From an uncultured Thermodesulfobacteriota bacterium (GTDB lineage: Bacteria > Desulfobacterota > CAZCTP01): a stretch of DNA of 64,000 nt. The stretch is from positions 10,384 through 74,383 of the forward strand of contig CAZCTP010000003.1 of assembly GCA_964501575.1 (NCBI GenBank). Direction: 5' to 3'. The notes under the pieces were generated by a model that did not search any database, was not told the DNA's origin, and saw nothing but the letters and a program-made list of their open reading frames with translations. The stretch's first letter is position 1. Every line of letters begins with the position of its first letter. The translations under genes were made by a program, and so were the position numbers. Of the stretch, positions 29,330-59,731 are shown one piece after another.

Positions 29330-29517
29330 ATGTATTAATACAATACATTGTCTTATTATAGGATATTTTTATTTATAATTTTTAATCAGTATATGAGAAT
29401 ATTATTTTAATATTTTAGTTGTTTTATTTTTAATCTATTCTAATATTATGTCTTGAAATAATACATGCAAATTCATTCCTCTACACCTTTACCTTTGATT
29501 ATAGATACTTCTTATTA

Positions 29518-29533
29518 TGGCATGATAATTGCA
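29518..29533 (+). promoter_or_regulatory. Sigma-54 (-24/-12) promoter candidate TGGCAT-N5-TTGCA
   Basis: TGGCATgataaTTGCA: GG at 29519-29520 and GC at 29531-29532 with canonical 10-nt spacing. Located 200 bp downstream of a sigma-54 activator gene and about 17 nt upstream of the MoaD-like start. Confidence 0.5.
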
Positions 29534-29549
29534 TAATTATATTTTATAT

Positions 29550-32413: not shown

Positions 32414-32414
32414 G

Positions 32415-33086: not shown

Positions 33087-33098
33087 GGAGGTTTTGAT

Positions 33099-33962
33099 AT
33101 GGATGTAACACAGACTATATGGAGATGGAAGGTAGCTTTTTATCTGTTTCTTGCAGGAGTTGGTGCCGGGAGTTATTTTATAGGAATTATTGAAGATTTT
33201 AGAGGGTATGATTCGGTGGCTACTATAGGTATCTGGCTCGGTGTTATCTTGGTATTTATATCTATCCTATTTTTACTCTGGGATCTTGGAAGACCTGAGA
33301 GATTTTATAAAGCAATAAATAATCCCAATTCATGGATCACAAAGGGTGTTTTTATACTCACTTTATTTGTTGTAGTGGGTATTGTTACTATTTTTATTGG
33401 TAATCCATTAAACTTTTATTTTAAAATTATTGGAATCATATTAGCTATAGCAATAGCTATATATACAGGGGTATTAATAGGAGTCGTTGCTGGAAGACCG
33501 ATATGGGGTAATTCAATGCTTCCTATACTTTTCTTAGTTTCAGCAATATCTACAGGAATAGGTGGAATAATGACTGTATATGTATTTAATATAGGAGACT
33601 TAAGTATTATTGATAGACTTGGATTGTTAGATATATTTCTGATAATATTAGAAGGGCTCGTTATATACCTATATCTTGTTATAATATTCTGGAGATTTCC
33701 AGAGAGTGTTAACATATTGATAAAGGGAAGACTCTCTCTCCAATTCTGGATAGGGCTTATATTTATAGGTCTTATTCTCCCATTGGTATTAGAATATATA
33801 AATCTATATACCGAAGTAGAGATAGTAAAGCTTCTTATTGCTTTTACAACTGGTATATCACTATTAATAGGTGGGTTTTTATTGAGAATTCTGATACTTG
33901 GAGCAGGGATTAGAAGACCTTTATATGTTGGGGTTCCCTTTTATGTACGTCCTGATGAGTGA
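33099..33962 (+). CDS. NrfD/PsrC-family integral membrane quinone-interacting subunit
   Basis: 287 aa, about 8 predicted TM helices, WRWKVAFYLFLAGVGAGSY N-terminal pattern typical of NrfD/PsrC. Confidence 0.75.
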   Translation: MDVTQTIWRWKVAFYLFLAGVGAGSYFIGIIEDFRGYDSVATIGIWLGVILVFISILFLLWDLGRPERFYKAINNPNSWITKGVFILTLFVVVGIVTIFIGNPLNFYFKIIGIILAIAIAIYTGVLIGVVAGRPIWGNSMLPILFLVSAISTGIGGIMTVYVFNIGDLSIIDRLGLLDIFLIILEGLVIYLYLVIIFWRFPESVNILIKGRLSLQFWIGLIFIGLILPLVLEYINLYTEVEIVKLLIAFTTGISLLIGGFLLRILILGAGIRRPLYVGVPFYVRPDE

Positions 33963-33973
33963 GGAGGGTAATT

Positions 33974-35239
33974 ATGCAGATTAGAAGGTTATATGAGAAA
34001 TTTTTATGGGTTGCAGAGCCAATAATATTAAAAATTGAGATTTTAAGAACAGGTTTAAAATTTACAGATGCTGCTAAGAATGCTCTAAAAGAGAGGGATG
34101 ATATATTATTTAAAGGATTCTGGCTATTTTCATATGATAGGGGAGAACCTGTTATGTATGGAGAGAAAATCCCTTTTCTTATAAGACTAAAAGATGAGAC
34201 TCCCATTCAGGTTAGAACAAATGAGAATTCTCCATATTATATAGATTATACTGATGGGAAATATATGCTTTGCGATCCTGATGGGCCACTTGAGGAAATT
34301 TTTTTTGATAGATCTCCAAAATATTATTCTAAAATTCTTTCAGATGGTACTCCAATGGCATCTATTGTCCAGGCAGTTGGCGATCTATTATTTGTAACAA
34401 TAAATAAATATTGCGAAATGTGGAAGGGTGGAAATCAGTGTCTGTTCTGTGATTTCAATGCCCAGACAAGAACTCAATCCCAAAAAGGGGAGGCTACAAT
34501 AGTAAGGAAAACTCCAGAAGTTATTGCAGATGTCTTGGAGATTGCATTCCATGAACCACAGTTCAGATATATGCTTATAACCGGCGGTTCAATTCTATCA
34601 TCTTATGAGGGTAAGAATGAAGTAGAGTATTATTGCGAACATTTAAATACTATAAGAAAGAGACTCAGGGTATGGTATCCAGCGGCATTTCAGATTGGTG
34701 CATTAAAAGAAGATGACTGGAAGAGAATATATGATACTGGAATTGGAACTGTTGAGCCAAATATAGAAGTGTGGGATAAAAGGCTATTTCAGATATTGTG
34801 TCCTGGTAAGGAGAAGGCGGTTGGATATGATGAATGGATAAGGAGAACTATTAAAGCTGTTGATATATTTGGACCTGGTAATGTTGTTCCAAACTTTGTA
34901 ACAGGGATTGAAATGGCAAAACCCTATGGATTTGAAAGATGGGAAGATGCTGTTAAATCTACATTGGATGGATTTGACTATTTGATGGATTATGGAGTCT
35001 TACCAAGGATGGATATGTGGTGTATAGAACCCAATTCTGTTCTTGCGAAATATAATCCAGAACCACCCCCTATAGAATATTATGTACATTTAGAAAAGGG
35101 ATATATGGAATTAAGGGAAAAGCATGACTTTATGACACTACAGGCGGGAATATCAAGATATTCTTATATCCATAACTGTGCTTGTGATTTCGCATACTAT
35201 CATGGGAATGGCCCCGGGTCAAAGAAGATACTTGGTTAA
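33974..35239 (+). CDS. Uncharacterised Cys-rich protein X1 (possible non-canonical radical SAM/TIM-barrel FeS enzyme); paralog of 62235..63512
   Basis: Strong SD GGAGGGT 6 nt before ATG 33974 (the track's GTG at 33959 overlaps the NrfD stop). Conserved with X2: FKGFWLFSYD.GEPVMYG, C-x9-C-x2-C (YCEMWKGGNQCLFCD), ITGG, EPNIEVW, ICPGK, MWCIE, C-terminal CxC. Confidence 0.5.
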   Translation: MQIRRLYEKFLWVAEPIILKIEILRTGLKFTDAAKNALKERDDILFKGFWLFSYDRGEPVMYGEKIPFLIRLKDETPIQVRTNENSPYYIDYTDGKYMLCDPDGPLEEIFFDRSPKYYSKILSDGTPMASIVQAVGDLLFVTINKYCEMWKGGNQCLFCDFNAQTRTQSQKGEATIVRKTPEVIADVLEIAFHEPQFRYMLITGGSILSSYEGKNEVEYYCEHLNTIRKRLRVWYPAAFQIGALKEDDWKRIYDTGIGTVEPNIEVWDKRLFQILCPGKEKAVGYDEWIRRTIKAVDIFGPGNVVPNFVTGIEMAKPYGFERWEDAVKSTLDGFDYLMDYGVLPRMDMWCIEPNSVLAKYNPEPPPIEYYVHLEKGYMELREKHDFMTLQAGISRYSYIHNCACDFAYYHGNGPGSKKILG

Positions 35240-35736: not shown

Positions 35737-38208
35737 ATGGCAAGAGAAGCAGTAGTGAGGAAGATAGTAACTCCAAGAGAAGTAAAAGGAGAACCTTCAA
35801 CTCCAAGATCAAGGATTGTAAGAGAAAGATATTTGAAGGCAGAACCAAGAGTTGATCCTGAAAGAGCATATCTATATACCAAATCATGGAAAGAGACAGA
35901 AGGAGAGCCTGTTGAGATAAGAAGAGGGAAATCATTTAAGTATGTGATGTCAAATCTAACTCCGGTAATAAGAGAAGGAGAATTGATTGTTGGTAATACA
36001 ACAAGGTATGTTCGTGGTTCATCCCCTTATCCTGAATTTTCAGTAAAATGGATGAAAAATGTGCTGAAGCAGGTACTTGATGAGGATGAGAAGTATGTTG
36101 ATGTCGGAACATATACAAAAGAGGCAAATTTTGGTGTATACAAAATAAGTACAGAAGACCTTAATATGCTCAAGGAATGTATTGAATACTGGGATGGGAG
36201 ATCATTGGACTGTCTTGCAAGAAAGTATATAGGTATGACGGATTGGAAGGATGAATTCGAAGCTGGTGAATCTGCTCAATGGTTTACAAGGCTTGGTTCA
36301 GAAATTCCAGAGGGTAGATTGGTGCTTGATTATGGAAAAGTCTTAAAATTGGGATTTAGGGGTATAATAGATGAGGCTAAAAACTGGATGAAATTACTCG
36401 AGGTAGTTACAATGGATGATTTCAGAAAACTTGCTTTCTATCAGGGAGTTATTAATGCATTAGAAGGAGTAATCCAATTTGCAAAGAACTATGCAAATGA
36501 GGCAAGAAGATTATCAAAGGAGGAGAAAAACAGGGATAGAGAAAAAGAACTTCTTGAGATTGCAGAGAGATGTGAATGGGTATCTGAGAACCCTCCAAGA
36601 GGGTTTAAAGATGCTTTACAGCTATACTGGTTTACAGTTTTATCCGGTCAGATTGAAAGTTTTTCATTCGGATTCTCTCCTGGAAGATTCGATCAATATA
36701 TGTATCCCTTCTATAGAAAAGATATAGACGAAGGTAAGATTACAAATAAGGAGGTCCTTGAACTACTTGAGCTATTAAGAGTTAAGTTTACAGAGATTCA
36801 GAGGGTCTGTTCGAGGTTCTGGGAAGGTCATGGTTCCGGTAATCTCTACCAGAATATGATGCTTGGAGGGATGAAAGCCGATGGCGAGGATGCAAGTAAT
36901 GAATTATCTATTCTTGTTCTTCAGGCAGCTATAAATCAGCAGACAACCCAGCCAACTCTATCGGTTAGATGGAATGATAAACTTAATGAGGAATTCCTGT
37001 TAAAGGCTATAGAACTTGTAAAAACCGGGGTCGGTATGCCAGCATGGTTTAATGATGAAGTGGCAATCCAACATTTCTTGGGCTATACTGGCTGCACATT
37101 AGAGGAGGCAAGAGATTATGCAATGGGTGGATGTACAGAAATGACACTTCCTGGAAAGAGATACGGTATTGTTACACCTGGTTTTGTAAATCAGGCGAAA
37201 TGTCTTGAGCTTGCTCTAAATAATGGTGTAAATCCTATAGATGGGAAGCAGCTTGGGCCGAAAACAGGCAAAATTAATAGCTTTGAAGATCTGCACAGAG
37301 CATTTCTCATACAGATGCAAAGGGCTATTGAGCTTATGTGTAAAGGACATGCAATATTAATGGGAGTTCATAGAGAGCTTGTTCCTCTTATATTCCATTC
37401 AGCAGTTATGGATGACTGCCTTGAAAAGGGTTTAAGCATGGATAATGGGGGAATAAGATATAAGGATTCGCCAACAATACTCTCTGTGGGGATGATAAAT
37501 GTTGCAAACTCTATGGCTGCTATAAAAAAGTGTGTATTTGAAGATAAAACATTCACGTTGAATGAGCTTAAAAAGGCATTGATTTCTAACTTTAAAGGAG
37601 ATGGATACGCAAGTGTTCACAGGAAGCTTCTTGATGCCCCTAAGTTTGGTAATGATGATGATTATGTAGACTTAATAGCAAAGGAGTTATACGAAGAGTT
37701 TGCAGAGGAAGTTTATAAATATAAGAACTATTTTGGTGTTCCTTATACCCCTGGAGCTCTTTCAATAAGCAGTCATCCACACTTTGGCAGGGTATGCGGT
37801 GCAAGCCCTGATGGAAGATTGGCAGGTGTCTCTCTATGCGATGGAGCTGTATCTGCATTTCCAGGAACAGATAAAAATGGACCAACATCCCTTGTTAAAT
37901 CCGCAACCAAGGTTGATTCCATTCCCCATATGGTGGTCCTCTTTAATATGAAATTCCATCCAACAGCTTTAAAGGGAATAGAGGGGTCAAAGAAGCTATT
38001 ATCTCTGATTAAGACATATTTTGATAGGGGTGGATGGCATGTTCAATTCAATGTAGTTGATACAAAGATGCTGAGGGATGCCCAGAGGAATCCTGAAAAA
38101 TACAGGGATCTTATTGTAAGGGTAGCAGGATTCAGTGCCTACTGGGTTGAGTTATCAAAGGCGGTTCAGGACGAGGTAATAGCAAGAACCGAGTATGAGA
38201 CATGTTAA
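35737..38208 (+). CDS. Glycyl radical enzyme GRE1 (PFL superfamily), unknown specificity
   Basis: 823 aa; C-terminal glycyl radical motif [13 protein letters not shown] (Gly codon 38128-38130); catalytic Cys loop MGGCTEM (Cys codon 37132-37134) with Glu two residues after Cys, as in GRE eliminases/decarboxylases. Confidence 0.9.
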   Translation: MAREAVVRKIVTPREVKGEPSTPRSRIVRERYLKAEPRVDPERAYLYTKSWKETEGEPVEIRRGKSFKYVMSNLTPVIREGELIVGNTTRYVRGSSPYPEFSVKWMKNVLKQVLDEDEKYVDVGTYTKEANFGVYKISTEDLNMLKECIEYWDGRSLDCLARKYIGMTDWKDEFEAGESAQWFTRLGSEIPEGRLVLDYGKVLKLGFRGIIDEAKNWMKLLEVVTMDDFRKLAFYQGVINALEGVIQFAKNYANEARRLSKEEKNRDREKELLEIAERCEWVSENPPRGFKDALQLYWFTVLSGQIESFSFGFSPGRFDQYMYPFYRKDIDEGKITNKEVLELLELLRVKFTEIQRVCSRFWEGHGSGNLYQNMMLGGMKADGEDASNELSILVLQAAINQQTTQPTLSVRWNDKLNEEFLLKAIELVKTGVGMPAWFNDEVAIQHFLGYTGCTLEEARDYAMGGCTEMTLPGKRYGIVTPGFVNQAKCLELALNNGVNPIDGKQLGPKTGKINSFEDLHRAFLIQMQRAIELMCKGHAILMGVHRELVPLIFHSAVMDDCLEKGLSMDNGGIRYKDSPTILSVGMINVANSMAAIKKCVFEDKTFTLNELKKALISNFKGDGYASVHRKLLDAPKFGNDDDYVDLIAKELYEEFAEEVYKYKNYFGVPYTPGALSISSHPHFGRVCGASPDGRLAGVSLCDGAVSAFPGTDKNGPTSLVKSATKVDSIPHMVVLFNMKFHPTALKGIEGSKKLLSLIKTYFDRGGWHVQFNVVDTKMLRDAQRNPEKYRDLIVRVAGFSAYWVELSKAVQDEVIARTEYETC

Positions 38209-38318
38209 AAAGAGCGGAAGTCCTGAAGTGCTGAGGAACGGAAGTGCGGAAGCAAAGACTTTAGATTTCTGAGTTTTCGTGCTTCTGTTCTCTTATAAAG
38301 TATAAAGGAGATAAAAAT

Positions 38319-39245
38319 ATGGTTGATAATGGAGAGAGAGCTCTTATATTTAATATTCAGAGATATTCTGTCCATGATGGTCCTGGAATAAGAACTACAG
38401 TATTTATGAAGGGATGCCCATTAAGATGTATATGGTGTCAGAATCCAGAAGGTATAAAGGGAAGGGTAGAGATAGGTTATAGCAAAAGATTGTGTTGTAG
38501 AGACTATCTCTGTTTAAAGGCGTGTCCAAATGGAGCAATAACTCTCTTAAAAAACGGAGAGATAAGGATAAATAGGAATATATGTTATCTATGTGAAAAT
38601 AGAAATTGTTTGTCAGTATGTAATACAAGAGCTATAGAACCGATAGGGAGATACATGACAGTTGATGAATTATTAAAAGAGGTTATGAAAGACAGCCTCT
38701 TTTATAGAAATTCGGATGACGGTGGAGTTACCCTATCCGGTGGTGAATCAACAACACAATGGAGATTTGTATTGGAGTTTTTTAAGAAATGTAAAGAGAG
38801 GGGGGTCCATACTGTTCTTGATACATGTGGATATGTTAAATGGGAAAGACTGTTAAATATATTGGAATATACGGATATAATTCTTTACGATATAAAGCAT
38901 ATGAATAGTAAGGAACATAAAAGACTTACCGGGGTTTCAAATGAACTTATTTTAAAGAATGCAGAGAATATTGCTAAGTTAAAGGATAAAAAGGTTATTA
39001 TAAGATATCCTGTTATCCCCGGGTATAATGATTCTATAGAAAACATAGATGCTTTAGGAGAATTTATGAATAAAATAGGTTTAAAGGAGATATGCCTTTT
39101 ACCCTATCACAGATTGGGCTCAGGTAAATATGAGAAAATAGGAAGGAAATATAGATTAGACCATGTTTTGGCTCCAAGTGAATCACAATTAAAGGGAATA
39201 AAGGATATTTTTGATAGAAGAGGGTTTATCTGTTCTATACAATGA
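38319..39245 (+). CDS. Glycyl radical enzyme activating enzyme (radical SAM, with two-ferredoxin insert)
   Basis: 308 aa; CX3CX2C in GCPLRCIWCQN, then two ferredoxin-like Cys motifs (CCRDYLCLKACP, CYLCENRNCLSVCN) as in BssD/CutD/GD-AE-type activases. Confidence 0.9.
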   Translation: MVDNGERALIFNIQRYSVHDGPGIRTTVFMKGCPLRCIWCQNPEGIKGRVEIGYSKRLCCRDYLCLKACPNGAITLLKNGEIRINRNICYLCENRNCLSVCNTRAIEPIGRYMTVDELLKEVMKDSLFYRNSDDGGVTLSGGESTTQWRFVLEFFKKCKERGVHTVLDTCGYVKWERLLNILEYTDIILYDIKHMNSKEHKRLTGVSNELILKNAENIAKLKDKKVIIRYPVIPGYNDSIENIDALGEFMNKIGLKEICLLPYHRLGSGKYEKIGRKYRLDHVLAPSESQLKGIKDIFDRRGFICSIQ

Positions 39246-39802
39246 ATCTTAAAAGGATTTTAAAACTTGATCCGGATAGAATAAGTTTAGGGACAAATAT
39301 AGCCCTTATAGGAGCAATAAGATTTGCAGTGAAAAATAAAAGTAGTGAAGTATACCCTGAACATATTATATATTCCCTTTTTACCATGGAGGATGCTGTT
39401 CTGCCTTTACTGATATCCAATCTTGGAGGCGATCCAGAAGAGGTTATTAGTAGTATAGAAAAGAGAATTAAAGATATTCAGGATAAAAAAAGAGTAGCTG
39501 ATAGAATTGAGAATGTTAAATTGTCTTTCAAATTAAGAAGGATAATAAATGAGGCTCTTAAGGAATCAGAGATGAGAGGAGAGCTTTTGTGTAATGATCA
39601 TCTTATGGTCGCTCTTTTTAAAGAAAAGGGTGGATTATTTTCGGAGATCCTTTTAAGTAATGGTATTAAGGAGTTTGATGTAAAACCCTTCAATTGTGGA
39701 GGATGTCCCAACGTATGTGAAGATATTATTGAATATATTGTAAACGGTGAGGTAATTGGAAGATATGGTGGGATATGTGGAACATGGAGGTTTAACCTAT
39801 GA
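39242..39802 (+). CDS. Stand-alone Clp N-terminal-domain (double Clp_N repeat) protein with Cys-rich C-terminal tail
   Basis: 186 aa; two Clp_N repeats (PEHIIYSLFTMEDAVLPLLISNLGGDPEEV and NDHLMVALFKEKGGLFSEILLSNGIKEF); tail C-x2-C-x3-C...C. ATGA overlap with the AE gene. Confidence 0.55.
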   Translation: MNLKRILKLDPDRISLGTNIALIGAIRFAVKNKSSEVYPEHIIYSLFTMEDAVLPLLISNLGGDPEEVISSIEKRIKDIQDKKRVADRIENVKLSFKLRRIINEALKESEMRGELLCNDHLMVALFKEKGGLFSEILLSNGIKEFDVKPFNCGGCPNVCEDIIEYIVNGEVIGRYGGICGTWRFNL

Positions 39803-40532: not shown

Positions 40533-42035
40533 ATGAGATTAATAAAATATAGTGTTATAATTTTAATGATATTTTTATGGGTTAATCCTTCCTATAGTGG
40601 AACAACTTTTACTACAAAAGCAGGGATACTATCTATTGGTGGTTATTTTGAAAATGCGAGTGGTTTAAGGCTTGGGCAGGAGGGTAGAGGCAGATTAACA
40701 ATGTGTAGAACCTCAATTCAGCCTGATATATTCTTTGATACCGGAAAGGGCGTAAGATTCTTTTTAGCTCAAAGACTGGTTAAGGAGACTAAATATACTC
40801 TTGAGGATAAATTGAGAAAGAAAGCAGGATTGCCACCCCTTGAGAGCGATTTTTATGATGAATATGATTCATGGTCTGTAAGAGAGTTATATTTTGATAT
40901 TGATCTTTTGGAAAATTTAAATATAAGGATTGGAAGACAATTGATAACATGGGGTGAGACAGATGTATTTACCCTTTTAGATGTTATTGACCCTCAAGAT
41001 TCAAGCTGGAATCTACCAGGTCTATTCCCTCTTGAAGAAACAAGGCTTCCGTTATCAGGTTTAAGGGCTCTATGGACAATGCCATCAATGGGAATGACGA
41101 CAAACCCTGTATTTGAGTTTGTTTACTTCCCCGGCCTTGATGATTTCAGAGTTAACAAGGGTGCTCCCACAGCAGGAAGATTTCGTCCCCATCCTGAGGA
41201 CAGACCAGGAGCAGCGTTTCCATTTCAGTTTCCTCAGATCCCGCTAAGTGATTGGAGAAGCATTGGAAGGAATGTTGGTGTAAGAACAGTCCTTCCTGAA
41301 AAGCATGGTGATAATGGAAGGGTTGGAGGCAGATTGTATTTCTTTATTGGTAGATGGAATTTCTCTATTGCAGACTATTATACATATAACCTATCTCCTA
41401 ACTTCTATATTGAAAATATAGAAAGGGATGATTTGGGAATTGCAAGGGCTGCCCAGTTTGCTGTTAAATATAAGAGGCAGAATATAGTCGGATTTACCTT
41501 CAATGTTTCTGATGACTATACAAAGGCAACATATAATGGTGAGTTCGCATATTATATAAATAAGCCTTATAATACATATGATCCAAATATTAAAAATGCA
41601 GTTGTTCAGAAGGATACCCTATCCTCTGTGATAAGGATTGAAAGACCAACCTATATTCCACTTCTTCAGCCATATGATCCTACAAGAGAATTTGTTATCT
41701 CATTTCAGTGGTTTCAGGATCTTATTTTGAGTAAGGATGATAATCTCCATTTTCTTATATATAAGACTCCCATTGATAAAGTTACAACAAGGTTGACCCT
41801 TTCTATAGCCACAGGGTATAAGAACGACCAATGGAAACCATCTGTATTCTGGGCGTATGATCCTGATAGGAACAACGGACTGTTTAGAGGGATATTGGAA
41901 TATAATCCCCCCTGGAATGAAAGATATAAGTTGCAGATCCTTTACGAAAACTTCTGGGGTAAGGATTCCTATAACTTCGCTGGTTTCTTCAGAGAAAAGG
42001 ATTCTATATTCTTTAAAATACGGTATCAATTTTAG
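40533..42035 (+). CDS. Secreted/outer-membrane protein, DUF1302-like (putative beta-barrel of hydrophobic-substrate uptake cluster)
   Basis: 500 aa; cleavable signal peptide (MRLIKYSVIILMIFLWVNPSYSG); C-terminal aromatic residue (…KIRYQF); gene order OMP-BNR-RND-DUF1329 matches the known DUF1302/DUF1329 cluster architecture. Family assignment is by context and pattern. Confidence 0.45.
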   Translation: MRLIKYSVIILMIFLWVNPSYSGTTFTTKAGILSIGGYFENASGLRLGQEGRGRLTMCRTSIQPDIFFDTGKGVRFFLAQRLVKETKYTLEDKLRKKAGLPPLESDFYDEYDSWSVRELYFDIDLLENLNIRIGRQLITWGETDVFTLLDVIDPQDSSWNLPGLFPLEETRLPLSGLRALWTMPSMGMTTNPVFEFVYFPGLDDFRVNKGAPTAGRFRPHPEDRPGAAFPFQFPQIPLSDWRSIGRNVGVRTVLPEKHGDNGRVGGRLYFFIGRWNFSIADYYTYNLSPNFYIENIERDDLGIARAAQFAVKYKRQNIVGFTFNVSDDYTKATYNGEFAYYINKPYNTYDPNIKNAVVQKDTLSSVIRIERPTYIPLLQPYDPTREFVISFQWFQDLILSKDDNLHFLIYKTPIDKVTTRLTLSIATGYKNDQWKPSVFWAYDPDRNNGLFRGILEYNPPWNERYKLQILYENFWGKDSYNFAGFFREKDSIFFKIRYQF

Positions 42036-42050
42036 TAAGAAGGATAGAAA

Positions 42051-43067
42051 ATGGAATTTAAGAGAGTATCTATTCTATTAATGATGGTTCTCCTTCTCTT
42101 AATGAATTTCAGGATAGTCCGTGCCTCTGATAGAATTGTAAGATATTATGACAATCTGTATGATGTTGAAATAGTGGGAAAGAATATATGGGCTGTGGGT
42201 TATTATGGAACCATACTTTATTCAAAGGATGGTGGTGAAAACTGGACTATTCAGAAAAGTCCAACAAAGAATCCCTTATTCAGGGTAGAATTTCTCGATG
42301 GATCAAATGGATGGATTGTCGGAAATTATGGGACAATTTTGCATACCTCAGATGGTGGAAGAAGCTGGAATATTCAGAAGAGTGGAACAAATAACCATCT
42401 ATTTGGTATCTCTTTTATAAACCCGGTAAAAGGATGGGTTGTAGGAGAGATGGGAACCATTCTTCATACCGATGATGGTGGTAAGAGCTGGATTGACCAA
42501 TCATTAAAGAATGAAGATATCATTCTAAATAGTATATGCTTTATTGATGAGGAAAATGGATGGATAGGAGGGGAATTCGGGGTTATATATGCTACAAAAG
42601 ATGGAGGCAGGAGCTGGATTAAGCAGAATAGTCCGGTAGAGGTTGGAAGATTTTCAGGGATTAGCCAGGTTATAAATAAGATTTGCTTCAATGATTTAAA
42701 AAGAGGATGGGCTGTAGGTTTAGATGGTGTTATTCTCAAGACAGAGGATGGAGGTAATAGCTGGAGGATTGTTGATAAAAAGGGGATATCCAAGCATGAG
42801 ATGGCAAGGAGTTATCTTTTAGACCTTACAAGTAACAGTGAAGATATATGGGCTGTTGGTTTAAGGGGAGCAATAATCTTCAGCAAGAATGAAGGTAAAG
42901 AATGGCATGTTATGGACTTAGGATACAGATTCCATCTAAATGGTATAGATATGAATAAAAAAGGACTTGGAATTATAGTTGGAGATAAAGGGTTTATTCT
43001 TAGAACCTTAGACGGTGGGAAAAGCTGGGATGTTATAAAACTTGAGGGAAGAGGAGAGAGAAAATGA
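42051..43067 (+). CDS. BNR/Ycf48-like beta-propeller repeat protein, secreted
   Basis: 338 aa; signal peptide; six to seven repeats of the DGG(K/R)SW BNR/Asp-box motif. Confidence 0.65.
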   Translation: MEFKRVSILLMMVLLLLMNFRIVRASDRIVRYYDNLYDVEIVGKNIWAVGYYGTILYSKDGGENWTIQKSPTKNPLFRVEFLDGSNGWIVGNYGTILHTSDGGRSWNIQKSGTNNHLFGISFINPVKGWVVGEMGTILHTDDGGKSWIDQSLKNEDIILNSICFIDEENGWIGGEFGVIYATKDGGRSWIKQNSPVEVGRFSGISQVINKICFNDLKRGWAVGLDGVILKTEDGGNSWRIVDKKGISKHEMARSYLLDLTSNSEDIWAVGLRGAIIFSKNEGKEWHVMDLGYRFHLNGIDMNKKGLGIIVGDKGFILRTLDGGKSWDVIKLEGRGERK

Positions 43068-45370
43068 AAATATTAGCCACTTTTATTATAAAATATCGCT
43101 TGCCAATCCTGACTGTAATAGTTCTAATTACCCTATTCTTTGCTTATCAAATACTCCATATAGAGATGTATACGGTCTTTGAAGACCTTCTTCCTTCAAA
43201 TCATCCATATATAAAGATGCATAGAGAGTTTAAGGATATATTTGGAGGGGCAAACCTTGTTCTTATATCAATTGAGGTAAAAAAAGGGAATATATTTAAT
43301 TACGATATCCTCTATAAGGTTAAGAAGATGACAGAGGCTGTTGAGATGTGCCATGGGGTGAATAACTATTTAATATACTCCATTGCAAGGCAGAAGGTTA
43401 AGGATATGAAGGCAACATCATGGGGGATTGAGATACAGCCTGTAATGTTTCCGAATCCACCGAAAACCAAGGAAGGTATGGAAGAACTTAAGAATGTTAT
43501 ATACTCCAATGATACAATATTTGGTAAGCTTGTTTCCCTTGACAGCAAGGCTGCTTTAATAACAGCCTCATTTATGGAGAAGAGGCTCGACTATAAATAT
43601 ATATTTGACCATATAATGAGGGCAGCGGATTCACTAAAAGATGAGAATACAATAATTAATGTTGCTGGTGAACCCATATTATATGGATGGATGTATTATC
43701 ATCTAAGGGAAATATCTGTAATATTTATTATTACCATCTCTACTATAGTTCTTCTACTAATCCTTTACTTTAGAAATATACCTGGTGTTATTATACCCAT
43801 GCTTTCTCTTATAGTTACAGCTATATGGGGTGTAGGATTTAATGGCGTTATGGGGTATAACTTTGATCCATTAATCCTTGTAGTTCCATTCCTTATATCT
43901 GCAAGGACAGTCAGTCACTCTGTTCAGATGACTTCTCGATTCTTTGAAGAATATGTTAGATCGGGTGATAGAAAAGAATCAGCGAGGATATCCATTGAAG
44001 GTTTACTGATCCCTGGATTAACATCCATAATAACAGATGCATTTGGTATTCTTGTTATTATTATTGCTCCCATACCAATCCTGGTGAGATTGGGTGTTGT
44101 TGGAACATTCTGGATAATAACGAATATTGTGAGTGTTCTTATATTAGCTCCTATCATATTTACATATATTCCGGTTCCTAAAAAGATAAGAGAGGAAAAG
44201 AGTGAAGATCTCCTTGGGAGAACCCTGTATAGAGCTGGAAAGGGATGCTTTGGGTTTCCACGATTTGGTATAGTAGGAGCAGCTATAATCATTGTTATAT
44301 GGTCTTCATGGAATGTAAGATATCTGACAATAGGGGATTCTCGCCCCGGTTCCCCTTTATTATGGCCAGATGCTCCTTTTAATCTCAGCACAAAGCATAT
44401 AAATGATAAGTTTCCAGGAACAAACCAGTTGATAATATTTGTAAAAGGGAAACATGAAAATACAATAAAATCTCCTGCTTTATTGTACAAGATGGAGGAA
44501 TTTGAAAGGTATTTAAGGAGATATTCAAAGGTTGGTGGAACAGAGTCTATAATAAATCTTGGTAAGAGGGCATATATGGTATTTCATAACGATGATCCAA
44601 GATGGAGATTCCTGTGTAAATCCAGGAATGATATGGGCAATATCTTCTATTTAGCCCAGGAAGGAACAGAGCCTGGGGACTTAGATAAATGGGTAAATTA
44701 TAACTGGCAGCATGGAACTATTATAGCCTATTTAAAGGACCATAAGGGAGATACTATAAGGGAGATTATAGGTAGAGCAAAGAGATTCATTGATAAAAAT
44801 CCAGTTAAAGATGCAGAATGGAAGCTTGCTGGTGGTCTTATAGGTATAGTCGCTGCAGGGAACGAAGTTATTGCAAAAGCCCATGAGTGGAATCTATTCC
44901 TTATACTATTTATAACCTTCCTATGCTGTGCAATAGGCTATAGGTCTATTATTGGTGGTATACTATTTATAGTATCTACATCAATAGCCAATTTTACCAC
45001 CTTGGCTATAATGGCATATTATAACCTTGGTTTAAATGTTAATACAATCCCTGTTGTGACATTAGGTATAGGATTGGGGGTTGATTATGGTCTCTATGTT
45101 GTAAGCAGAATAAAGGAGGAATATGAAATATCTAAGGATTTGAAGATCGCTATTCCCCTGGCTATATCCACTGCTGGTAAGGCTGTTCTATTTACAGCAT
45201 TAACAATAACAGCAGGTATTATATTCTGGTGGTTTTCACCCCTTAGGTTCCAGGCTGAGATGGGGGGGCTTTTGACAATAGTACTTCTCTTTAATATGCT
45301 CGGGGGTATGTTTCTACTTCCGGCACTTATATATATTATAAAACCAAAATTTGTTATTGGAAGGGGGTGA
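43064..45370 (+). CDS. RND-superfamily exporter (MMPL/'predicted exporter of the RND superfamily' type)
   Basis: 768 aa; two 6-TM bundles each preceded by a large extracytoplasmic loop; sterol-sensing-domain-like TM region. Confidence 0.75.
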   Translation: MKILATFIIKYRLPILTVIVLITLFFAYQILHIEMYTVFEDLLPSNHPYIKMHREFKDIFGGANLVLISIEVKKGNIFNYDILYKVKKMTEAVEMCHGVNNYLIYSIARQKVKDMKATSWGIEIQPVMFPNPPKTKEGMEELKNVIYSNDTIFGKLVSLDSKAALITASFMEKRLDYKYIFDHIMRAADSLKDENTIINVAGEPILYGWMYYHLREISVIFIITISTIVLLLILYFRNIPGVIIPMLSLIVTAIWGVGFNGVMGYNFDPLILVVPFLISARTVSHSVQMTSRFFEEYVRSGDRKESARISIEGLLIPGLTSIITDAFGILVIIIAPIPILVRLGVVGTFWIITNIVSVLILAPIIFTYIPVPKKIREEKSEDLLGRTLYRAGKGCFGFPRFGIVGAAIIIVIWSSWNVRYLTIGDSRPGSPLLWPDAPFNLSTKHINDKFPGTNQLIIFVKGKHENTIKSPALLYKMEEFERYLRRYSKVGGTESIINLGKRAYMVFHNDDPRWRFLCKSRNDMGNIFYLAQEGTEPGDLDKWVNYNWQHGTIIAYLKDHKGDTIREIIGRAKRFIDKNPVKDAEWKLAGGLIGIVAAGNEVIAKAHEWNLFLILFITFLCCAIGYRSIIGGILFIVSTSIANFTTLAIMAYYNLGLNVNTIPVVTLGIGLGVDYGLYVVSRIKEEYEISKDLKIAIPLAISTAGKAVLFTALTITAGIIFWWFSPLRFQAEMGGLLTIVLLFNMLGGMFLLPALIYIIKPKFVIGRG

Positions 45371-45459
45371 GGGAAGTCAATTAAGAATTATGAATTAGGA
45401 ATTATGAATTATGAGTTATTATTAAGCAGGAAGTAAAAAATATAAAGAAGGAGGTTTAT

Positions 45460-46716
45460 ATGAAAAAATCAAAATATTTCGTTATTCCTTTTATAATTTT
45501 ATCCTTTATTTTTCTTCTTAATACGAGAAGGGGCTTTGCGGATGTTAAGCCAGGGGATGTTATAGGTCCAAATAACTGGGAGAAAGTTAAAGACCTATTT
45601 TTACCATGGATGTTAGGGCAGATAAAAAAAGGCTGGACAATAAAGATAAGAAAGACAGAGCCTATTCTCCCCACATTTTCAAAGGGATACTTAGAGGCAA
45701 CCCGGAAGTATGCAGGGCAGGCAAAGATAGGGCTCAATGATGGGTTGCTTAACTATAAAGGTGGCCTTCCATTTCCGAAGATAGACCCCGATGACCCTCA
45801 AGCTGGAATAAAGATTATGTATAACTTCTACTGGAGATGGACAGGAGATGATAAGGTTCTCGCTGTTGATAAAACCGGAAAGAGAATAGTACCCTGGAGG
45901 AGATGGGTTATTGATAGGCACGGAAATGAGATAACTGCAGATACATATGGATATTTTTTGAAAGCGAGTGCAAGAACAGATATACCTCCAATATCTGCTT
46001 TTAAAGGAAAGGAGCATATAGAGAGTTATAGTATGTGGATAAATGTATGGCCAAGGGATTCATCGGGAACGGTTGTCTTTTATTACAGATATTATGATCC
46101 TAAAAAATGGGATGACCAGTGGATATTTATACCGAGTATAAGAAGAGTAAGAAGATGGCCAACATCTCAGAGATGTTCAACAAAAGCTCCAACAGACTAT
46201 ATATGGGATGATAACTGGGGATGGGATTCAAAGGTAAGCCTTTTTAAATATAAACTTCTTGGTGAAAAGAAGATGTTAACCATATTTCATGGAAAGCATA
46301 TTCCATATAAGAAGAAGAAAGGTTCTCCATGGTTGCTGGATGAAGAGTTTGAAGTAAGGGACTGTTATGTTGTTGAGATAACTGCAAAGGATCCAAACTA
46401 CTGCTATAGAAGACAGGTATACTATGTAGACAAAGAGAGTTTTCATGGAGTTGCAAAGGAGGTGTATGACAGGAAAAATGAATACTGGAAAGAGATGTTA
46501 ATGTTTGGAACCAATTATGAATATCCTGATGGAAGGAAATTCTGGGGGATTTTAGGATCTATATTTGTAAATGTTCAGACAGAACATATAAATATAAACT
46601 GCCCTTCTGAATCTGGGGCTACAATATATTATAATATAGGACTTACTCCAAAGTTCTTTACCCTATCTCAGATGCAGCAATTTCAGAGAGGGATGGGTTA
46701 TGTGAAGATTAAGTGA
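45460..46716 (+). CDS. Secreted protein, DUF1329-like (partner of DUF1302-like protein)
   Basis: 418 aa; signal peptide MKKSKYFVIPFIILSFIFLLNTRRGFADV; paralog at 61160..62233. Confidence 0.45.
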   Translation: MKKSKYFVIPFIILSFIFLLNTRRGFADVKPGDVIGPNNWEKVKDLFLPWMLGQIKKGWTIKIRKTEPILPTFSKGYLEATRKYAGQAKIGLNDGLLNYKGGLPFPKIDPDDPQAGIKIMYNFYWRWTGDDKVLAVDKTGKRIVPWRRWVIDRHGNEITADTYGYFLKASARTDIPPISAFKGKEHIESYSMWINVWPRDSSGTVVFYYRYYDPKKWDDQWIFIPSIRRVRRWPTSQRCSTKAPTDYIWDDNWGWDSKVSLFKYKLLGEKKMLTIFHGKHIPYKKKKGSPWLLDEEFEVRDCYVVEITAKDPNYCYRRQVYYVDKESFHGVAKEVYDRKNEYWKEMLMFGTNYEYPDGRKFWGILGSIFVNVQTEHININCPSESGATIYYNIGLTPKFFTLSQMQQFQRGMGYVKIK

Positions 46717-47609: not shown

Positions 47610-47998
47610 ATGGCAAGAGAAGCAGTAATAAAGGAAATAATAGCTCCAAGGGAGGTTCAGGGTGAGCCTTCAACTGAAAGATCAAGACTTGTAAGGGAGA
47701 GATATCTAAAGGCAGAGCTTGAAGTAGATCCTGAAAGGGCGGATCTCTATACAAAATCATGTAAGGAAACATAGGGAGAGCCTCTTGAAATAAGGAGAGG
47801 TAAGGCATTCAAATATATTATAGGTGGCATATACAGTTCAATGTAGTTGATACAAAGATGCTGAGGGATGCACAGAGGAATCCTGATAAATACAGGGGTC
47901 TTATTGTAAGGGTTGCAGGATTCAGTGCCTACTGGGTTGAGCTTTCTAAAGCAGTGCAGGATGAAGTTATAGCAAGAACTGAGTATGAGACATGCTAA
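47610..47998 (+). pseudogene. Glycyl radical enzyme remnant: GRE1-type N-terminus (about 70 aa) fused to C-terminal glycyl-radical motif segment, with an in-frame stop and about 700 codons deleted
   Basis: Begins with the same SD + ATGGCAAGAGAAGCAGTA as GRE1 (MAREAVIKEIIAPREVQGEPSTERSRLVRERYLKAE...), TAG at 47772-47774, then at about 47840 jumps to sequence about 90% identical to the last about 160 nt of GRE1 ([55 protein letters not shown]), out of frame. Confidence 0.75.

Positions 47999-58100: not shown

Positions 58101-59727
<1,627 letters not shown>

Positions 59728-59731
<4 letters not shown>

What the first reader, a model, noticed from the sequence alone, without database searches (positions are those of the whole stretch)
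35737..39245. GRE1 plus dedicated activase: PFL-family enzyme with a Cys-x-Glu active-site loop and no small subunits
GRE1 has the radical glycine motif [12 protein letters not shown] and a MGGCTEM loop. A Glu two residues after the thiyl Cys is typical of GRE eliminases/decarboxylases rather than PFL or X-succinate synthases. The activase carries the two-ferredoxin insert typical of BssD/CutD-type activases. No BssB/C-like small ORFs exist in the 27-111 bp flanking gaps. The N-terminal 60 residues (MAREAVVRKIVTPREVKGEPSTPRS...) are conserved in GRE2 and in the GRE remnant, so this is a distinct family-specific extension.
Basis: partly seen in the sequence, partly recalled or inferred. Interest (0 to 1): 0.75.

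Follow-up and report, generated by a model that had tools for sequence, protein, structure and literature searches.

The report
Uncharacterised glycyl radical enzyme with activase
This is an intact oxygen-sensitive radical enzyme and its activating partner, from an untested branch of the family whose only studied member makes skatole. It probably removes a carboxyl group from a greasy aromatic acid, but its real substrate is unknown.

Summary
GRE1 (35737-38208, 823 aa) is an intact PFL-like glycyl radical enzyme with the Gly loop [12 protein letters not shown] (G798) and the Cys loop MGGCTEM (C466, E468). The next gene (38319-39245) is a GRE activase with CX3CX2C and eight further cysteines. 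No known small-subunit gene is present.

CxE, the ferredoxin-like insert and the lack of small subunits apply to most non-PFL, non-XSS GREs. The "60-residue extension" is about 20 residues, and it is shared with indoleacetate decarboxylase (IAD).

GRE1 passes no curated family cut-off. It falls in a well-supported superclade whose only characterised member is IAD (44% identity). It keeps IAD's Arg, gate Trp, Phe and Leu but lacks IAD's His514, HPAD's second Glu and the polar diol-binding residues of glycerol dehydratase.

Its close relatives (58-61% identity, sediment metagenomes) always sit next to an SDR. They often also sit next to an aldehyde oxidoreductase, a UbiD decarboxylase and flavoenzymes. 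The same gene set, plus an AmeABCD-type hydrophobe pump, surrounds GRE1.

Best guess (about 0.45): it decarboxylates an aromatic or hydrophobic acetic-acid-type substrate. A 1,2-eliminase role remains a serious rival. It is a new member of a known kind, of moderate interest.

The parts
35737..38208 (+). GRE1, a PFL-like glycyl radical enzyme of 823 aa, with a strong Shine-Dalgarno sequence (AAGGAGG) upstream
   Evidence: AF2 model pLDDT 93.3.
36310..36318 (+). E192-G193-R194 motif. R194 sits at the position of IAD Arg226 and HPAD Arg223, where glycerol dehydratase has His164 and the Klebsiella CutC sequence has Asp.
   Evidence: Alignments. At least 90% conserved in 111 superclade members.
36661..36678 (+). 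Pocket loop F309-S-F-G-F-S314. The close relatives have G-A-M-G-M-S, glycerol dehydratase has N-G-H-S-I-S and HPAD has Ser344 at the F311 position.
36820..36849 (+). W362...Y371. These are the equivalents of the IAD gate Trp392 and pocket Phe401, with the same 9-residue spacing.
   Evidence: PMC13232127.
37123..37143 (+). Cys loop MGGCTEM, with the thiyl-radical Cys466 and the CxE Glu468
38119..38154 (+). Glycyl radical loop [12 protein letters not shown] (G798)
38221..38309 (+). Strong RNA hairpin in the GRE1-activase spacer. It may be an mRNA stabiliser or a partial terminator that sets the GRE:activase ratio (inference).
   Evidence: -36.2 kcal/mol, z = -4.6, 0 of 200 shuffles fold as well.
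38319..39245 (+). GRE activating enzyme (radical SAM), 308 aa
   Evidence: It is the only copy in the window.
38415..38438 (+). Radical SAM cluster motif C33-P-L-R-C37-I-W-C40
38493..38621 (+). Eight-cysteine ferredoxin-like insert (CC-x4-C-x3-C ... C-x2-C-x4-C-x3-C), which would hold two auxiliary [4Fe-4S] clusters
   Evidence: The same 8-Cys feature is described for the IAD activase (PMC6181972).
46743..47525 (+). SDR oxidoreductase. Its orthologues (41-46% identity) lie next to every close GRE1 relative for which upstream DNA is available.
47610..47998 (+). Remnant of a third GRE1-like gene directly after the SDR. It keeps N-terminal codons 1-74 with a stop at codon 55, joined out of frame to the last 57 codons.
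   Evidence: The same 54-aa truncated ORF is called in an independent assembly.
29518..29533 (+). Candidate sigma-54 -24/-12 element TGGCATGATAATTGCA. It lies between the sigma-54 activator gene and the first gene of the same-strand gene row that contains GRE1.
   Evidence: one mismatch, one of only two such sites in the window.. Its function is inferred.
40533..46716 (+). AmeABCD-type four-part RND cassette downstream of GRE1 (DUF1302, Ycf48/BNR-like, MMPL/RND, DUF1329)
   Evidence: PMC6394551.

Best explanation
GRE1 and the adjacent gene form a working glycyl radical enzyme system.

The activase binds SAM on its CX3CX2C [4Fe-4S] cluster, which is fed electrons through two auxiliary clusters. 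It abstracts a hydrogen from Gly798 of GRE1. The stored glycyl radical generates a thiyl radical on Cys466 in each turnover, and Glu468 acts as the proton relay. These steps are inferred from family membership and intact motifs.

GRE1 belongs to an uncharacterised clade of the superclade that contains indoleacetate decarboxylase. The host is an uncultured bacterium related to Nitrospirota/Thermodesulfovibrionales.

The most likely reaction is non-oxidative, Kolbe-type or HAT-initiated decarboxylation of an aromatic or otherwise hydrophobic acetic-acid-type substrate, giving a methyl-bearing apolar product. The substrate would lie in a Phe/Trp/Tyr/Leu-lined pocket under Arg194.

The surrounding genes suggest a route, all of it inferred. 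The apolar product would be handled by the AmeABCD-type pump. It could then be oxidised at the new methyl group by CtmAB-like COG1233 flavoenzymes, followed by the SDR, a molybdenum aldehyde oxidoreductase and UbiD decarboxylation. The substrate is not indoleacetate, 4-hydroxyphenylacetate or phenylacetate as recognised by the known enzymes.
For: (1) The protein is intact and folds well. Domains and motifs. AF2 pLDDT 93.3 and pTM 0.93.

(2) Placement.
- The best curated model is IAD, NF033718, at 870 bits. PFL2-3 scores 653, HPAD 640, HypD 548 and CutC 529.
- Genuine IADs score 1557-1665 bits and are 44-45% identical to GRE1.
- In the NJ bootstrap, GRE1, GRE2, IAD and the related clades separate from glycerol dehydratase, CutC and HypD in 100 of 100 replicates. 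GRE1 groups with its 58-61% relatives in 94 of 100.

(3) Pocket (residue roles from PMC13232127).
- Kept from IAD: R194 = Arg226, W362 = Trp392, Y371 = Phe401, F483 = Phe517, L582 = Leu616.
- The polar diol-binding residues of glycerol dehydratase are replaced: His164 by Arg, His281 and Ser282 by Phe and Gly, Asp447 by Thr.

(4) GRE1 has an IAD/HPAD-type N-terminal segment and a partial 'extension 1'.

(5) Conserved neighbours of close relatives.
- An SDR is adjacent in 13 of 13 loci.
- A tungsten-type aldehyde:ferredoxin oxidoreductase, UbiD, CrtO-like or FixC-like flavoenzymes and an activase recur.
- Locus L102 carries CrtO-like x2, SDR, GRE, activase, AOR and UbiD. That is the same set as in the window.

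(6) Context in the window.
- The UbiD is closest to phenylphosphate carboxylase and to aromatic-acid decarboxylases.
- The XDH-type protein is closest to 4-hydroxybenzoyl-CoA reductase alpha.
- An AmeABCD-type cassette, which gives tolerance to apolar monoterpenes in Castellaniella, lies directly downstream (PMC6394551).
- COG1233 enzymes (CtmAB) oxidise an allylic methyl group anaerobically, and alcohol and aldehyde dehydrogenases follow (PMC4109377).
Against: - Single-sequence similarity hardly separates decarboxylases from dehydratases. Glycerol dehydratase is 40% identical, at 590 bits, and is the best solved match. In the Foldseek search, HPAD (E 3.7e-67) and glycerol dehydratase (E 6.8e-67) tie.
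- GRE1 lacks IAD extension 2 and His514, and it lacks HPAD Ser344 and Glu637.
- A strictly conserved SDR together with aldehyde oxidoreductases is the classic company of GRE dehydratases that release aldehydes.
- The position of the GRE1 clade relative to IAD is unresolved. The grouping A+IAD+C appears in only 17 of 100 replicates.
- HPAD, PhdB, AAD, the sulfonate lyases and the XSS enzymes were not in my tree.
- GRE1 differs from all 17 close relatives at several pocket positions, so their gene context may not transfer to it.
- GRE1's own gene row (MoaD-like, Psr-like Mo enzyme, variant radical SAM, PNPOx) is not found beside any relative, and this reading does not explain it.
- No substrate was docked or tested.
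Confidence: 0.45

Rival explanations
1. GRE1 is a 1,2-eliminase (dehydratase or lyase) or an isomerase acting on a hydrophobic or aromatic alcohol, for example an aryl-substituted vicinal diol or a beta-hydroxy ether. Cys466 abstracts H from the carbinol carbon and Glu468 deprotonates the hydroxyl. A leaving group on the neighbouring carbon departs, perhaps assisted by Arg194. The aldehyde or ketone product is then oxidised by the aldehyde oxidoreductase or reduced by the SDR.
For: - CxE is retained by all eliminases and isomerases, where the Glu binds the substrate hydroxyl (PMC13450708).
- Glycerol dehydratase is the best solved-structure sequence match (590 bits, 40% identity) and ties with HPAD in the fold search.
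- TIGR01774 (PFL2/glycerol dehydratase subfamily) scores 653 against a cut-off of 678.
- Tyr371 equals the glycerol dehydratase Tyr in the MYQN motif (Tyr339 by my recollection of the published numbering).
- The SDR is adjacent in 13 of 13 close relatives and aldehyde:ferredoxin oxidoreductases recur. That is the usual downstream chemistry for an aldehyde-forming GRE.
Against: - The residues that hold and protonate the leaving group in known eliminases are replaced by Arg, Phe, Gly and Thr.
- The clade separates from glycerol dehydratase, CutC and HypD in 100% of bootstraps and groups with IAD-type enzymes.
- All eliminase equivalog models score far below their cut-offs.
- UbiD and the COG1233 flavoenzymes are not explained by this reading.
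Confidence: 0.3
2. GRE1 carries out a GRE reaction type not yet described, neither decarboxylation, 1,2-elimination, isomerisation nor fumarate addition. The substrate would be an apolar isoprenoid-, sterol- or lignin-derived compound, and GRE1 would work with the Psr-like Mo enzyme, variant radical SAM and PNPOx proteins of its own gene row.
For: - GRE1 passes no curated family threshold.
- It differs from all its closest relatives at pocket positions G309F, M313F, S467T, Q470T, L581I and I583S.
- Its upstream genes are unique to this genome.
- The 2026 review states that entire GRE clades lack experimental validation (PMC13450708).
Against: There is no positive evidence for new chemistry. 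Every catalytic element present (Gly, Cys, CxE, Arg) is already used by known classes.
Confidence: 0.15
3. GRE1 is an X-succinate synthase-like hydrocarbon-activating enzyme that adds an apolar hydrocarbon to fumarate. The pump and the hydrocarbon-type flavoenzymes nearby would fit this.
For: - An AmeABCD-type cassette and CtmAB-like COG1233 genes lie nearby, as in anaerobic hydrocarbon and terpene degraders.
- IAD-type enzymes are structurally close to BSS and MASS (PMC13232127).
Against: - The Cys loop has Glu where BssA has Ser (PMC7079210).
- No beta, gamma or delta small-subunit genes are present.
- BSS and MASS are the weakest non-PFL matches among solved structures (325-342 bits against 590 for glycerol dehydratase).
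- The BssD activase model scores 230 against a cut-off of 496.
Confidence: 0.04
4. GRE1 is a decaying or non-catalytic paralogue, one of three GRE copies in an island that is undergoing gene loss.
For: A third copy is already a remnant. One COG1233 gene appears to be split into two ORFs, 58119-59168 and 59240-59731. GRE1 sits on a long branch with many private substitutions.
Against: The reading frame is full length. All catalytic motifs are intact. There is a strong ribosome-binding site and an adjacent intact activase. The model is confident throughout.
Confidence: 0.04

Closest known systems
Indoleacetate decarboxylase (IAD; Olsenella and Clostridium scatologenes type, NCBIfam NF033718)
   Same: - Best-scoring curated family (870 bits), with 44-45% identity to genuine IADs.
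- Same superclade, supported by 100% of bootstraps.
- Single subunit with no small subunits.
- CxE Cys loop.
- Shares Arg (226/194), gate Trp (392/362), Phe517/F483 and Leu616/L582, the N-terminal REV-x-G-x-PST-R segment, and an activase with the 8-Cys insert.
   Different: - Scores below the 1100-bit cut-off.
- His514, which binds the indole N-H, is Thr480.
- Extension 2 (IAD 651-675) is absent and extension 1 is shorter.
- The GRW-PAYD and SPGRWGQLL signatures are replaced by GRLVLDYG and SPGRFDQYM.
- The pocket loop is FSFGFS where IAD has V-V-G-L-S.
- The genomic context is not amino-acid fermentation with an MFS transporter.
4-Hydroxyphenylacetate decarboxylase (HPAD, HpdBC/CsdBC; PDB 2Y8N)
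   Same: - Best Foldseek match (E 3.7e-67, TMq 0.93).
- CxE, Arg at the QGR/EGR position, and an N-terminal extension.
   Different: - 640 bits against a cut-off of 1150.
- Glu637 is Leu and Ser344 is Phe.
- The long insertion after the Cys loop is absent.
- No gamma subunit gene.
B12-independent glycerol and 1,2-propanediol dehydratases (PDB 1R8W, 5I2A, 9RCO)
   Same: - Highest phmmer score among solved structures (590 bits, 40% identity).
- Almost the same length, with few indels.
- CxE and the Tyr of the Y-Q-N motif are conserved.
- SDR and aldehyde-oxidising neighbours resemble diol-dehydratase pathways.
   Different: - His164 is Arg, His281 and Ser282 are Phe and Gly, and Asp447 is Thr.
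- It falls outside the GRE1 superclade in 100% of bootstraps.
- TIGR01774 scores 653 against a cut-off of 678.
Phenylacetate decarboxylase PhdB (toluene synthase)
   Same: It is also a single-subunit GRE decarboxylase from uncultured anaerobes that yields an apolar product.
   Different: PhdB has CxQ, and its Q484E mutant is inactive (PMC7079210). GRE1 has CxE. I had no PhdB sequence to align.
Castellaniella defragrans monoterpene island (CtmAB, GeoA/GeoB, AmeABCD)
   Same: The window combines an AmeABCD-type cassette, COG1233 flavoenzymes, an alcohol dehydrogenase and an aldehyde-oxidising enzyme (PMC6394551, PMC4109377).
   Different: That island has no GRE and no UbiD. Here the proteins are only family-level relatives. 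I had no Ctm or Ame sequences to compare directly.

Membership tests
PFL-like glycyl radical enzyme superfamily (IPR004184) | PFL-like barrel domain plus C-terminal glycine radical domain | tested here: met
   PF02901 at 653 bits and PF01228 at 102 bits. The AF2 model matches all solved GREs at TM 0.88-0.94.
PFL-like glycyl radical enzyme superfamily (IPR004184) | Conserved radical Gly in an RVxG motif and catalytic Cys on the Cys loop | tested here: met
   G798 and C466 are invariant in 111 aligned relatives. C466 aligns with glycerol dehydratase C433.
PFL-like glycyl radical enzyme superfamily (IPR004184) | Cognate radical SAM activase encoded nearby | tested here: met
   TIGR02494 at 343.7 bits against a cut-off of 174, with CX3CX2C at residues 33-40. 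An activase lies beside 79 of 88 related loci.
PFL-like glycyl radical enzyme superfamily (IPR004184) | Formation of a stable glycyl radical (EPR doublet, O2 cleavage) | not testable with these tools
   Needs anaerobic biochemistry.
Indoleacetate decarboxylase (NF033718) | Whole-protein score at or above the curated cut-off of 1100 bits | tested here: not met
   870.4 bits. Genuine IADs from C. drakei, Clostridium sp. OS1-26 and C. massiliodielmoense score 1557-1665.
Indoleacetate decarboxylase (NF033718) | His514 hydrogen-bonding the indole N-H; Arg226, Phe401, Leu616, Glu502 and Trp392 required for activity | tested here: inconclusive
   The Arg, Trp, Glu and Leu equivalents and Phe517 are present. 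Phe401 is Tyr371 and His514 is Thr480. His514 substitutions have only a modest effect in IAD (PMC13232127).
Indoleacetate decarboxylase (NF033718) | Extension 1 (124-169) and extension 2 (651-675) that replace the small subunits | tested here: not met
   Extension 2 is absent and extension 1 is shortened and lacks the GGG motif.
4-Hydroxyphenylacetate decarboxylase (NF033715) | Curated cut-off of 1150 bits; Glu637 (Glu2) binding the phenol OH; [4Fe-4S] gamma subunit | tested here: not met
   640 bits. The Glu637 position is Leu582. No small Cys-rich ORF is present.
Phenylacetate decarboxylase PhdB | CxQ Cys loop (Gln484) | tested here: not met
   GRE1 has C466-T-E468. The feature is taken from PMC7079210.
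GRE diol dehydratases (glycerol and propanediol) | His164 as general acid, His281/Ser282 and Asp447 binding the diol; TIGR01774 cut-off of 678 | tested here: not met
   Arg194, Phe311/Gly312 and Thr480 occupy these positions. The score is 653.4 bits.
Choline TMA-lyase, HypD and sulfonate lyases | Curated equivalog cut-offs (1000-1100 bits) | tested here: not met
   CutC 529, HypD 548, HpsG 538 and HpfG 524 bits.
X-succinate synthases | Ser, not Glu, at Cys+2; beta and gamma (and delta) small subunits; BssD-type activase | tested here: not met
   Glu468 is present. There are no small-subunit genes. TIGR04003 scores 230 against a cut-off of 496. BSS and MASS score 325-342 bits.
X-succinate synthases | Fumarate-binding pocket residues | not tested
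   I had no residue-level alignment to BssA.
Pyruvate formate-lyase / TdcE | Adjacent Cys-Cys pair on the Cys loop; TIGR01255 cut-off of 994 | tested here: not met
   The loop has a single Cys (G-G-C-T-E). The score is 140 bits.

The most novel reading that the evidence does not exclude
GRE1 and its conserved partners encode an undescribed anaerobic route that removes an acetic-acid side chain from an aromatic or isoprenoid ring one carbon at a time. The steps would be:
1. GRE decarboxylation (R-CH2-COOH to R-CH3).
2. Oxygen-independent methyl hydroxylation by CtmAB-like COG1233 flavoenzymes.
3. Alcohol oxidation by the SDR.
4. Aldehyde oxidation by the Mo- or W-dependent oxidoreductase.
5. 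UbiD decarboxylation (R-COOH to R-H).

An AmeABCD-type pump would handle the toxic apolar intermediate. This would give uncultured sediment Nitrospirota and deltaproteobacteria-type organisms a new way to degrade such compounds.
Probability: 0.12. Interest if true: 0.8.

Novelty: new member of a known kind. Interest (0 to 1): 0.45.

Why it matters
Only about two dozen GRE reactions are known, and the 2026 review stresses that entire clades are untested. This enzyme sits in the large environmental and archaeal sister radiation of the skatole-forming IAD. Members occur in Ignavibacteria, Cloacimonadota, Asgard archaea and sediment deltaproteobacteria-type MAGs.

Its close relatives have an unusually consistent gene company: SDR, aldehyde oxidoreductase, UbiD and flavoenzymes. 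That gives a concrete, testable handle on the function of a whole clade. It may also bear on how aromatic or terpenoid acids are degraded, or volatile hydrocarbons produced, in anoxic sediments.

If GRE1 is a decarboxylase, it would also be a candidate catalyst for making hydrocarbons from renewable acids.

Tried and rejected
- Small subunits. I looked at every small ORF near GRE1 (99, 66 and 114 aa) and at the 186-aa Clp_N/Cys-rich protein that overlaps the activase stop codon. None matches a small-subunit model. The Clp_N protein has no homologue other than itself among 5.8 billion proteins and is absent from 88 related loci. I rejected it as a conserved subunit.
- Fold search. Foldseek against the PDB cannot separate decarboxylase from dehydratase.
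- PhdB, PFL and XSS membership. All rejected on the Cys-loop residue and on scores.
- Upstream genes. I asked whether GRE1's upstream genes (Psr-like Mo enzyme, NrfD, variant radical SAM, PNPOx) are conserved partners. They have no hits in 88 related loci, so that arrangement is specific to this genome.
- Genome collection. The GTDB genome scan returned nothing above about 51% identity.
- Literature. Searches for GRE + UbiD + AOR and for GRE in Nitrospirota found nothing relevant.
- Remnant as a spare part. I considered the GRE remnant as a GrcA-like spare part. It has an in-frame stop and a frame shift, and the 46-aa Gly-loop ORF has no obvious ribosome-binding site, so I treat it as a pseudogene.
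- Missing reference sequences. I could not obtain PhdB, BssA, IslA, Ctm or Ame sequences for direct alignment.

Full report
**1. The observation**

The window has an 823-codon ORF at 35737-38208 on the + strand and a 308-codon ORF at 38319-39245.

The first translates to a protein with MGGCTEM at residues 463-469 and [12 protein letters not shown] at 795-806. It matches the PFL-like domain (PF02901, E 7e-196) and the glycine radical domain (PF01228, E 3e-29). Its Cys aligns with the catalytic Cys433 of Clostridium butyricum glycerol dehydratase.

The second ORF matches the GRE activase subfamily TIGR02494 at 344 bits against a cut-off of 174. It has C33-x3-C37-x2-C40 and eight further cysteines between residues 59 and 101, arranged CC-x4-C-x3-C and C-x2-C-x4-C-x3-C.

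Both genes have good Shine-Dalgarno sequences. The gaps on either side of GRE1 are 26 and 110 bp.

**2. Small subunits**

The small ORFs in the neighbourhood are:
- a 99-aa MoaD-family protein at 29550-29849;
- ORFs of 66 and 114 aa at 39889 and 40113.

These have 0-2 cysteines and match no HPAD or BSS small-subunit model.

A 186-aa protein (39242-39802) overlaps the activase stop codon. It has a Clp_N domain and a C-terminal CGGCPNVC...C patch, so I considered it as a possible new partner. It has no homologue other than itself in the 5.8-billion-protein collection and is absent from 88 related loci. It is not a conserved subunit.

**3.

The literature confirms that the Cys-loop Glu is replaced by Ser in PflB and BssA and by Gln in PhdB (PMC7079210). 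All eliminases, all isomerases, HPAD and IAD keep CxE (PMC13450708). So CxE excludes PFL, XSS and PhdB, but nothing else.

The 8-Cys insert is present in many GRE activases, including the IAD activase (PMC6181972).

The "N-terminal 60 residues" are mostly the ordinary GRE N-terminus. GRE1 residues 21-820 align with glycerol dehydratase residues 9-785. Only about 20 residues are extra. Their motif (R14, E15, S21, T22, R24) is at least 90% conserved across 111 relatives, and E15, S21, T22 and R24 are also seen in genuine IADs. In IAD, residues 4-41 form a described N-terminal extension (PMC13232127).

The activase is the only one in the window, and GRE2 has none, so "dedicated" is not established.

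**4. Placement**

*Curated models.* No curated equivalog is passed:

| Model | Score (bits) | Cut-off |
|---|---|---|
| IAD | 870 | 1100 |
| PFL2-3 | 653 | 678 |
| HPAD | 640 | 1150 |
| HypD | 548 | 1100 |
| CutC | 529 | 1050 |

*Solved structures.* By sequence, glycerol dehydratase is best at 590 bits. HPAD scores 463 and BSS and MASS score 325-342.

*Homologues.* The protein search found the identical protein on contigs from JGI metagenomes. It also found a tight group of 17 relatives at 58-61% identity, from sediment-type metagenomes and Deltaproteobacteria bacterium DG_8. Below that come hundreds of hits at 44-53% from Ignavibacteria, Cloacimonadota, Anoxybacter, Thermoanaerobacterales and several archaeal phyla.

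*Reference IADs.* The genome scan brought in enzymes from Clostridium drakei, Clostridium sp. OS1-26 and C. massiliodielmoense. They score 1557-1665 bits on the IAD model and are therefore genuine IADs. They are 44-45% identical to GRE1.

*Tree.* In a neighbour-joining tree with 100 bootstraps:
- all of these sequences separate from glycerol dehydratase, CutC and HypD in 100 replicates;
- GRE1 groups with its 58-61% relatives (clade A) in 94;
- IAD groups with the large Ignavibacteria/Cloacimonadota clade in 100;
- the position of clade A relative to these and to GRE2's clade is unresolved (17 and 12).

*Structure.* An AlphaFold model is confident (pLDDT 93.3, pTM 0.93). In the Foldseek search, HPAD 2Y8N and glycerol dehydratase 1R8W tie (E 3.7e-67 and 6.8e-67).

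GRE1 is thus a member of an uncharacterised clade in the IAD-containing superclade. In overall similarity it is roughly equidistant from a decarboxylase and a dehydratase.

**5. Active site by homology**

I used the IAD cryo-EM description (PMC13232127) and alignments to genuine IADs, HPAD and glycerol dehydratase.

| GRE1 | IAD | Other enzymes |
|---|---|---|
| Arg194 | Arg226 (stacks on the indole) | HPAD Arg223; glycerol dehydratase His164; Asp in the Klebsiella CutC sequence |
| Trp362 | gate Trp392 | |
| Tyr371 | Phe401 | |
| Phe483 | Phe517 | |
| Leu582 | Leu616 | HPAD Glu637 |
| Thr480 | His514 | glycerol dehydratase Asp447 |
| Phe311, Gly312 | | glycerol dehydratase His281, Ser282 |
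| Phe311 | | HPAD Ser344 |

IAD extension 2 is missing and extension 1 is short.

GRE1 also departs from all 17 of its closest relatives at G309F, M313F, S467T, Q470T, L581I and I583S. It departs from most of them at positions 310, 311, 365, 366, 371, 479 and 480. The predicted pocket is therefore very hydrophobic and aromatic, IAD-like in layout, and private to this protein.

**6. Gene context**

*The GRE1 gene row.* GRE1 lies in a same-strand row of genes. A PAS/sigma-54 activator gene (27353-29329) is followed by a near-consensus -24/-12 element at 29518-29533. That site is one of only two sites with at most one mismatch in the window. The overall count at up to two mismatches is not above chance. 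The genes that follow are:
- a MoaD-like protein;
- a Psr/Phs-like Mo enzyme with its FeS and NrfD subunits;
- a variant radical SAM protein;
- a PNPOx-like protein;
- GRE1, the activase and the Clp_N orphan.

*Downstream*:
- an AmeABCD-type RND cassette (DUF1302, Ycf48-like, HAE3/MMPL, DUF1329);
- an SDR;
- the GRE remnant;
- an XDH-family Mo protein closest to 4-hydroxybenzoyl-CoA reductase alpha (767 bits, cut-off 995);
- a COG1233 flavoenzyme;
- GRE2;
- another COG1233 enzyme;
- a UbiD closest to phenylphosphate carboxylase alpha and to the solved aromatic-acid and ferulic-acid decarboxylases;
- a YCII protein;
- a third COG1233 gene in two pieces;
- a second partial Ame-like set;
- another variant radical SAM protein.

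*What is conserved elsewhere.* The genes upstream of GRE1 are not conserved near any relative. In clade A, an SDR 41-46% identical to the window's SDR is adjacent in 13 of 13 loci that have upstream sequence. It lies on the opposite strand directly upstream of the GRE in all of them. Activase, tungsten-type aldehyde:ferredoxin oxidoreductase, UbiD, and CrtO-like or FixC-like flavoenzymes with a ferredoxin recur. Locus L102 has CrtO-like x2, SDR, GRE, activase, AOR and UbiD. That is the same set as the window, with a W-AOR in place of the Mo enzyme.

In the window the SDR is followed not by an intact GRE but by the remnant. The intact GRE1-activase pair lies 8.5 kb upstream.

*GRE2's clade.* Its loci instead carry a TPP-dependent decarboxylase-like enzyme, an AOR and FAD enzymes.

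*Host.* Housekeeping genes place the organism near Nitrospirota/Thermodesulfovibrionales. Its PPDK is 70-74% identical to MAGs of that group. The GC content is about 35%.

**7. Interpretation**

What is shown: an intact GRE and activase, membership of the IAD-containing superclade, failure of every specific family test, a hydrophobic IAD-like set of pocket residues, and a conserved gene company.

What is inferred: the reaction.

The best-supported reading is decarboxylation of an aromatic or hydrophobic acetic-acid-type substrate. The conserved neighbours can then be arranged as a chain acting on the same carbon:
1. An aldehyde oxidoreductase could supply the acid from an aldehyde.
2. After decarboxylation, COG1233 enzymes could oxidise the new methyl group. 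CtmAB does this anaerobically to the allylic methyl of limonene, and alcohol and aldehyde dehydrogenases follow (PMC4109377).
3. The SDR and the Mo or W enzyme would carry the carbon to the acid.
4. UbiD would remove it.
5. The Ame-type pump, which confers tolerance to apolar monoterpenes (PMC6394551), would deal with the apolar intermediate.

This chain is a hypothesis, not a result.

The main rival is a 1,2-eliminase releasing an aldehyde or ketone. The near-equal similarity to glycerol dehydratase and the SDR and AOR company favour it. The loss of all the polar leaving-group residues counts against it. XSS, PFL and PhdB-type functions fail defining tests.

**8. Novelty and score**

The June 2026 review lists the characterised GRE classes and says that whole clades remain unvalidated (PMC13450708). 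Nothing in the searched literature covers this clade.

It is a new member of a known kind. It is not a new architecture and, on present evidence, not new chemistry.

The conserved SDR/AOR/UbiD/flavoenzyme company and the remodelled pocket make it a reasonable target for function discovery. Interest: 0.45.

Noticed in passing
window 47610-47998 (+): Remnant of a third GRE1-like gene directly after the SDR.
- Codons 1-74 are 73% identical to GRE1 and carry a TAG at codon 55.
- They are joined out of frame to the last 57 codons, which are 95% identical at the protein level. Of the 16 codons that differ there, 13 are synonymous and 3 are not.
- A 46-aa ATG ORF (47858-47998) still encodes the whole Gly loop.
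- The truncated 54-aa ORF is also called in an independent assembly.
It is most likely a deletion pseudogene. A spare-part role like GrcA, known so far only for PFL, is a long shot.
   Followed up: partly
window 51884-54385 (+): GRE2 (833 aa, 53% identical to GRE1) has an intact Gly loop and a GGCVEQ Cys loop, but no activase of its own in the window. Its closest relatives mostly carry Cys-x-Asp instead of Cys-x-Glu. They sit beside a TPP-dependent decarboxylase-like gene, an aldehyde:ferredoxin oxidoreductase and FAD enzymes.
   Followed up: partly
related proteins P0036, P0067, P0072, P0113 and P0117, and locus L088: A large clade of GREs from Firmicutes and archaea (Nezhaarchaeota, Hecatellales) has a P-C-G-C-V-D Cys loop, with Asp in place of the CxE Glu. 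Several Asgard archaeal MAGs (Hermod-, Hod- and Heimdallarchaeota) encode GREs in the IAD sister clade. No archaeal PFL-like GRE has a proven function.
   Followed up: no
window 38221-38309 (+): A long, near-perfect RNA hairpin fills the 110-nt spacer between GRE1 and the activase (-36.2 kcal/mol, z = -4.6). It has no clear U-tract. It may stabilise the GRE1 message or reduce read-through into the activase gene.
   Followed up: partly
window 39242-39802 (+): A 186-aa protein whose start overlaps the activase stop codon. It has a Clp_N domain and a C-terminal CGGCPNVC...C cysteine patch. It has no homologue other than itself in 5.8 billion proteins.
   Followed up: yes
window 27353-29850 (+): A PAS-domain sigma-54 activator is followed by the near-consensus -24/-12 element TGGCATGATAATTGCA, only 16 nt before the ATG of a MoaD-family gene. 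That leaves almost no leader and no Shine-Dalgarno sequence.
   Followed up: partly
window 29846-33962 (+): A Psr/Phs-like molybdopterin oxidoreductase with FeS and NrfD subunits. Its catalytic subunit starts directly at the Fe4S4 domain, so it appears to lack a Tat signal. Its best models are PhsA and QrcB, both far below their cut-offs. It is not found next to any related GRE.
   Followed up: no
window 33959-35239 and 62217-63512 (+): Two paralogous 'variant radical SAM' proteins (NF045502, 219 and 185 bits) of unknown function bracket the island. One lies directly upstream of PNPOx and GRE1.
   Followed up: no
window 40533-46716 and 59728-62233 (+): One complete AmeABCD-type RND cassette (DUF1302, Ycf48-like, MMPL/HAE3, DUF1329), and a second partial set (DUF1302 plus a LolA-like protein). 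This type of cassette has mostly been described in Proteobacteria. Here it is in a Nitrospirota-like genome.
   Followed up: partly
window 58119-59731 (+): The third COG1233 (CrtO-like) flavoenzyme is split into two ORFs of 349 and 163 aa, separated by 71 nt. This suggests a disrupted gene. Together with the GRE remnant, it suggests the island is being remodelled.
   Followed up: no
window 25243-27248 (+): A radical SAM protein with a helix-hairpin-helix domain is followed by a protein with a Cas6-type domain. No CRISPR array or other cas genes were seen nearby in the ORF list.
   Followed up: no
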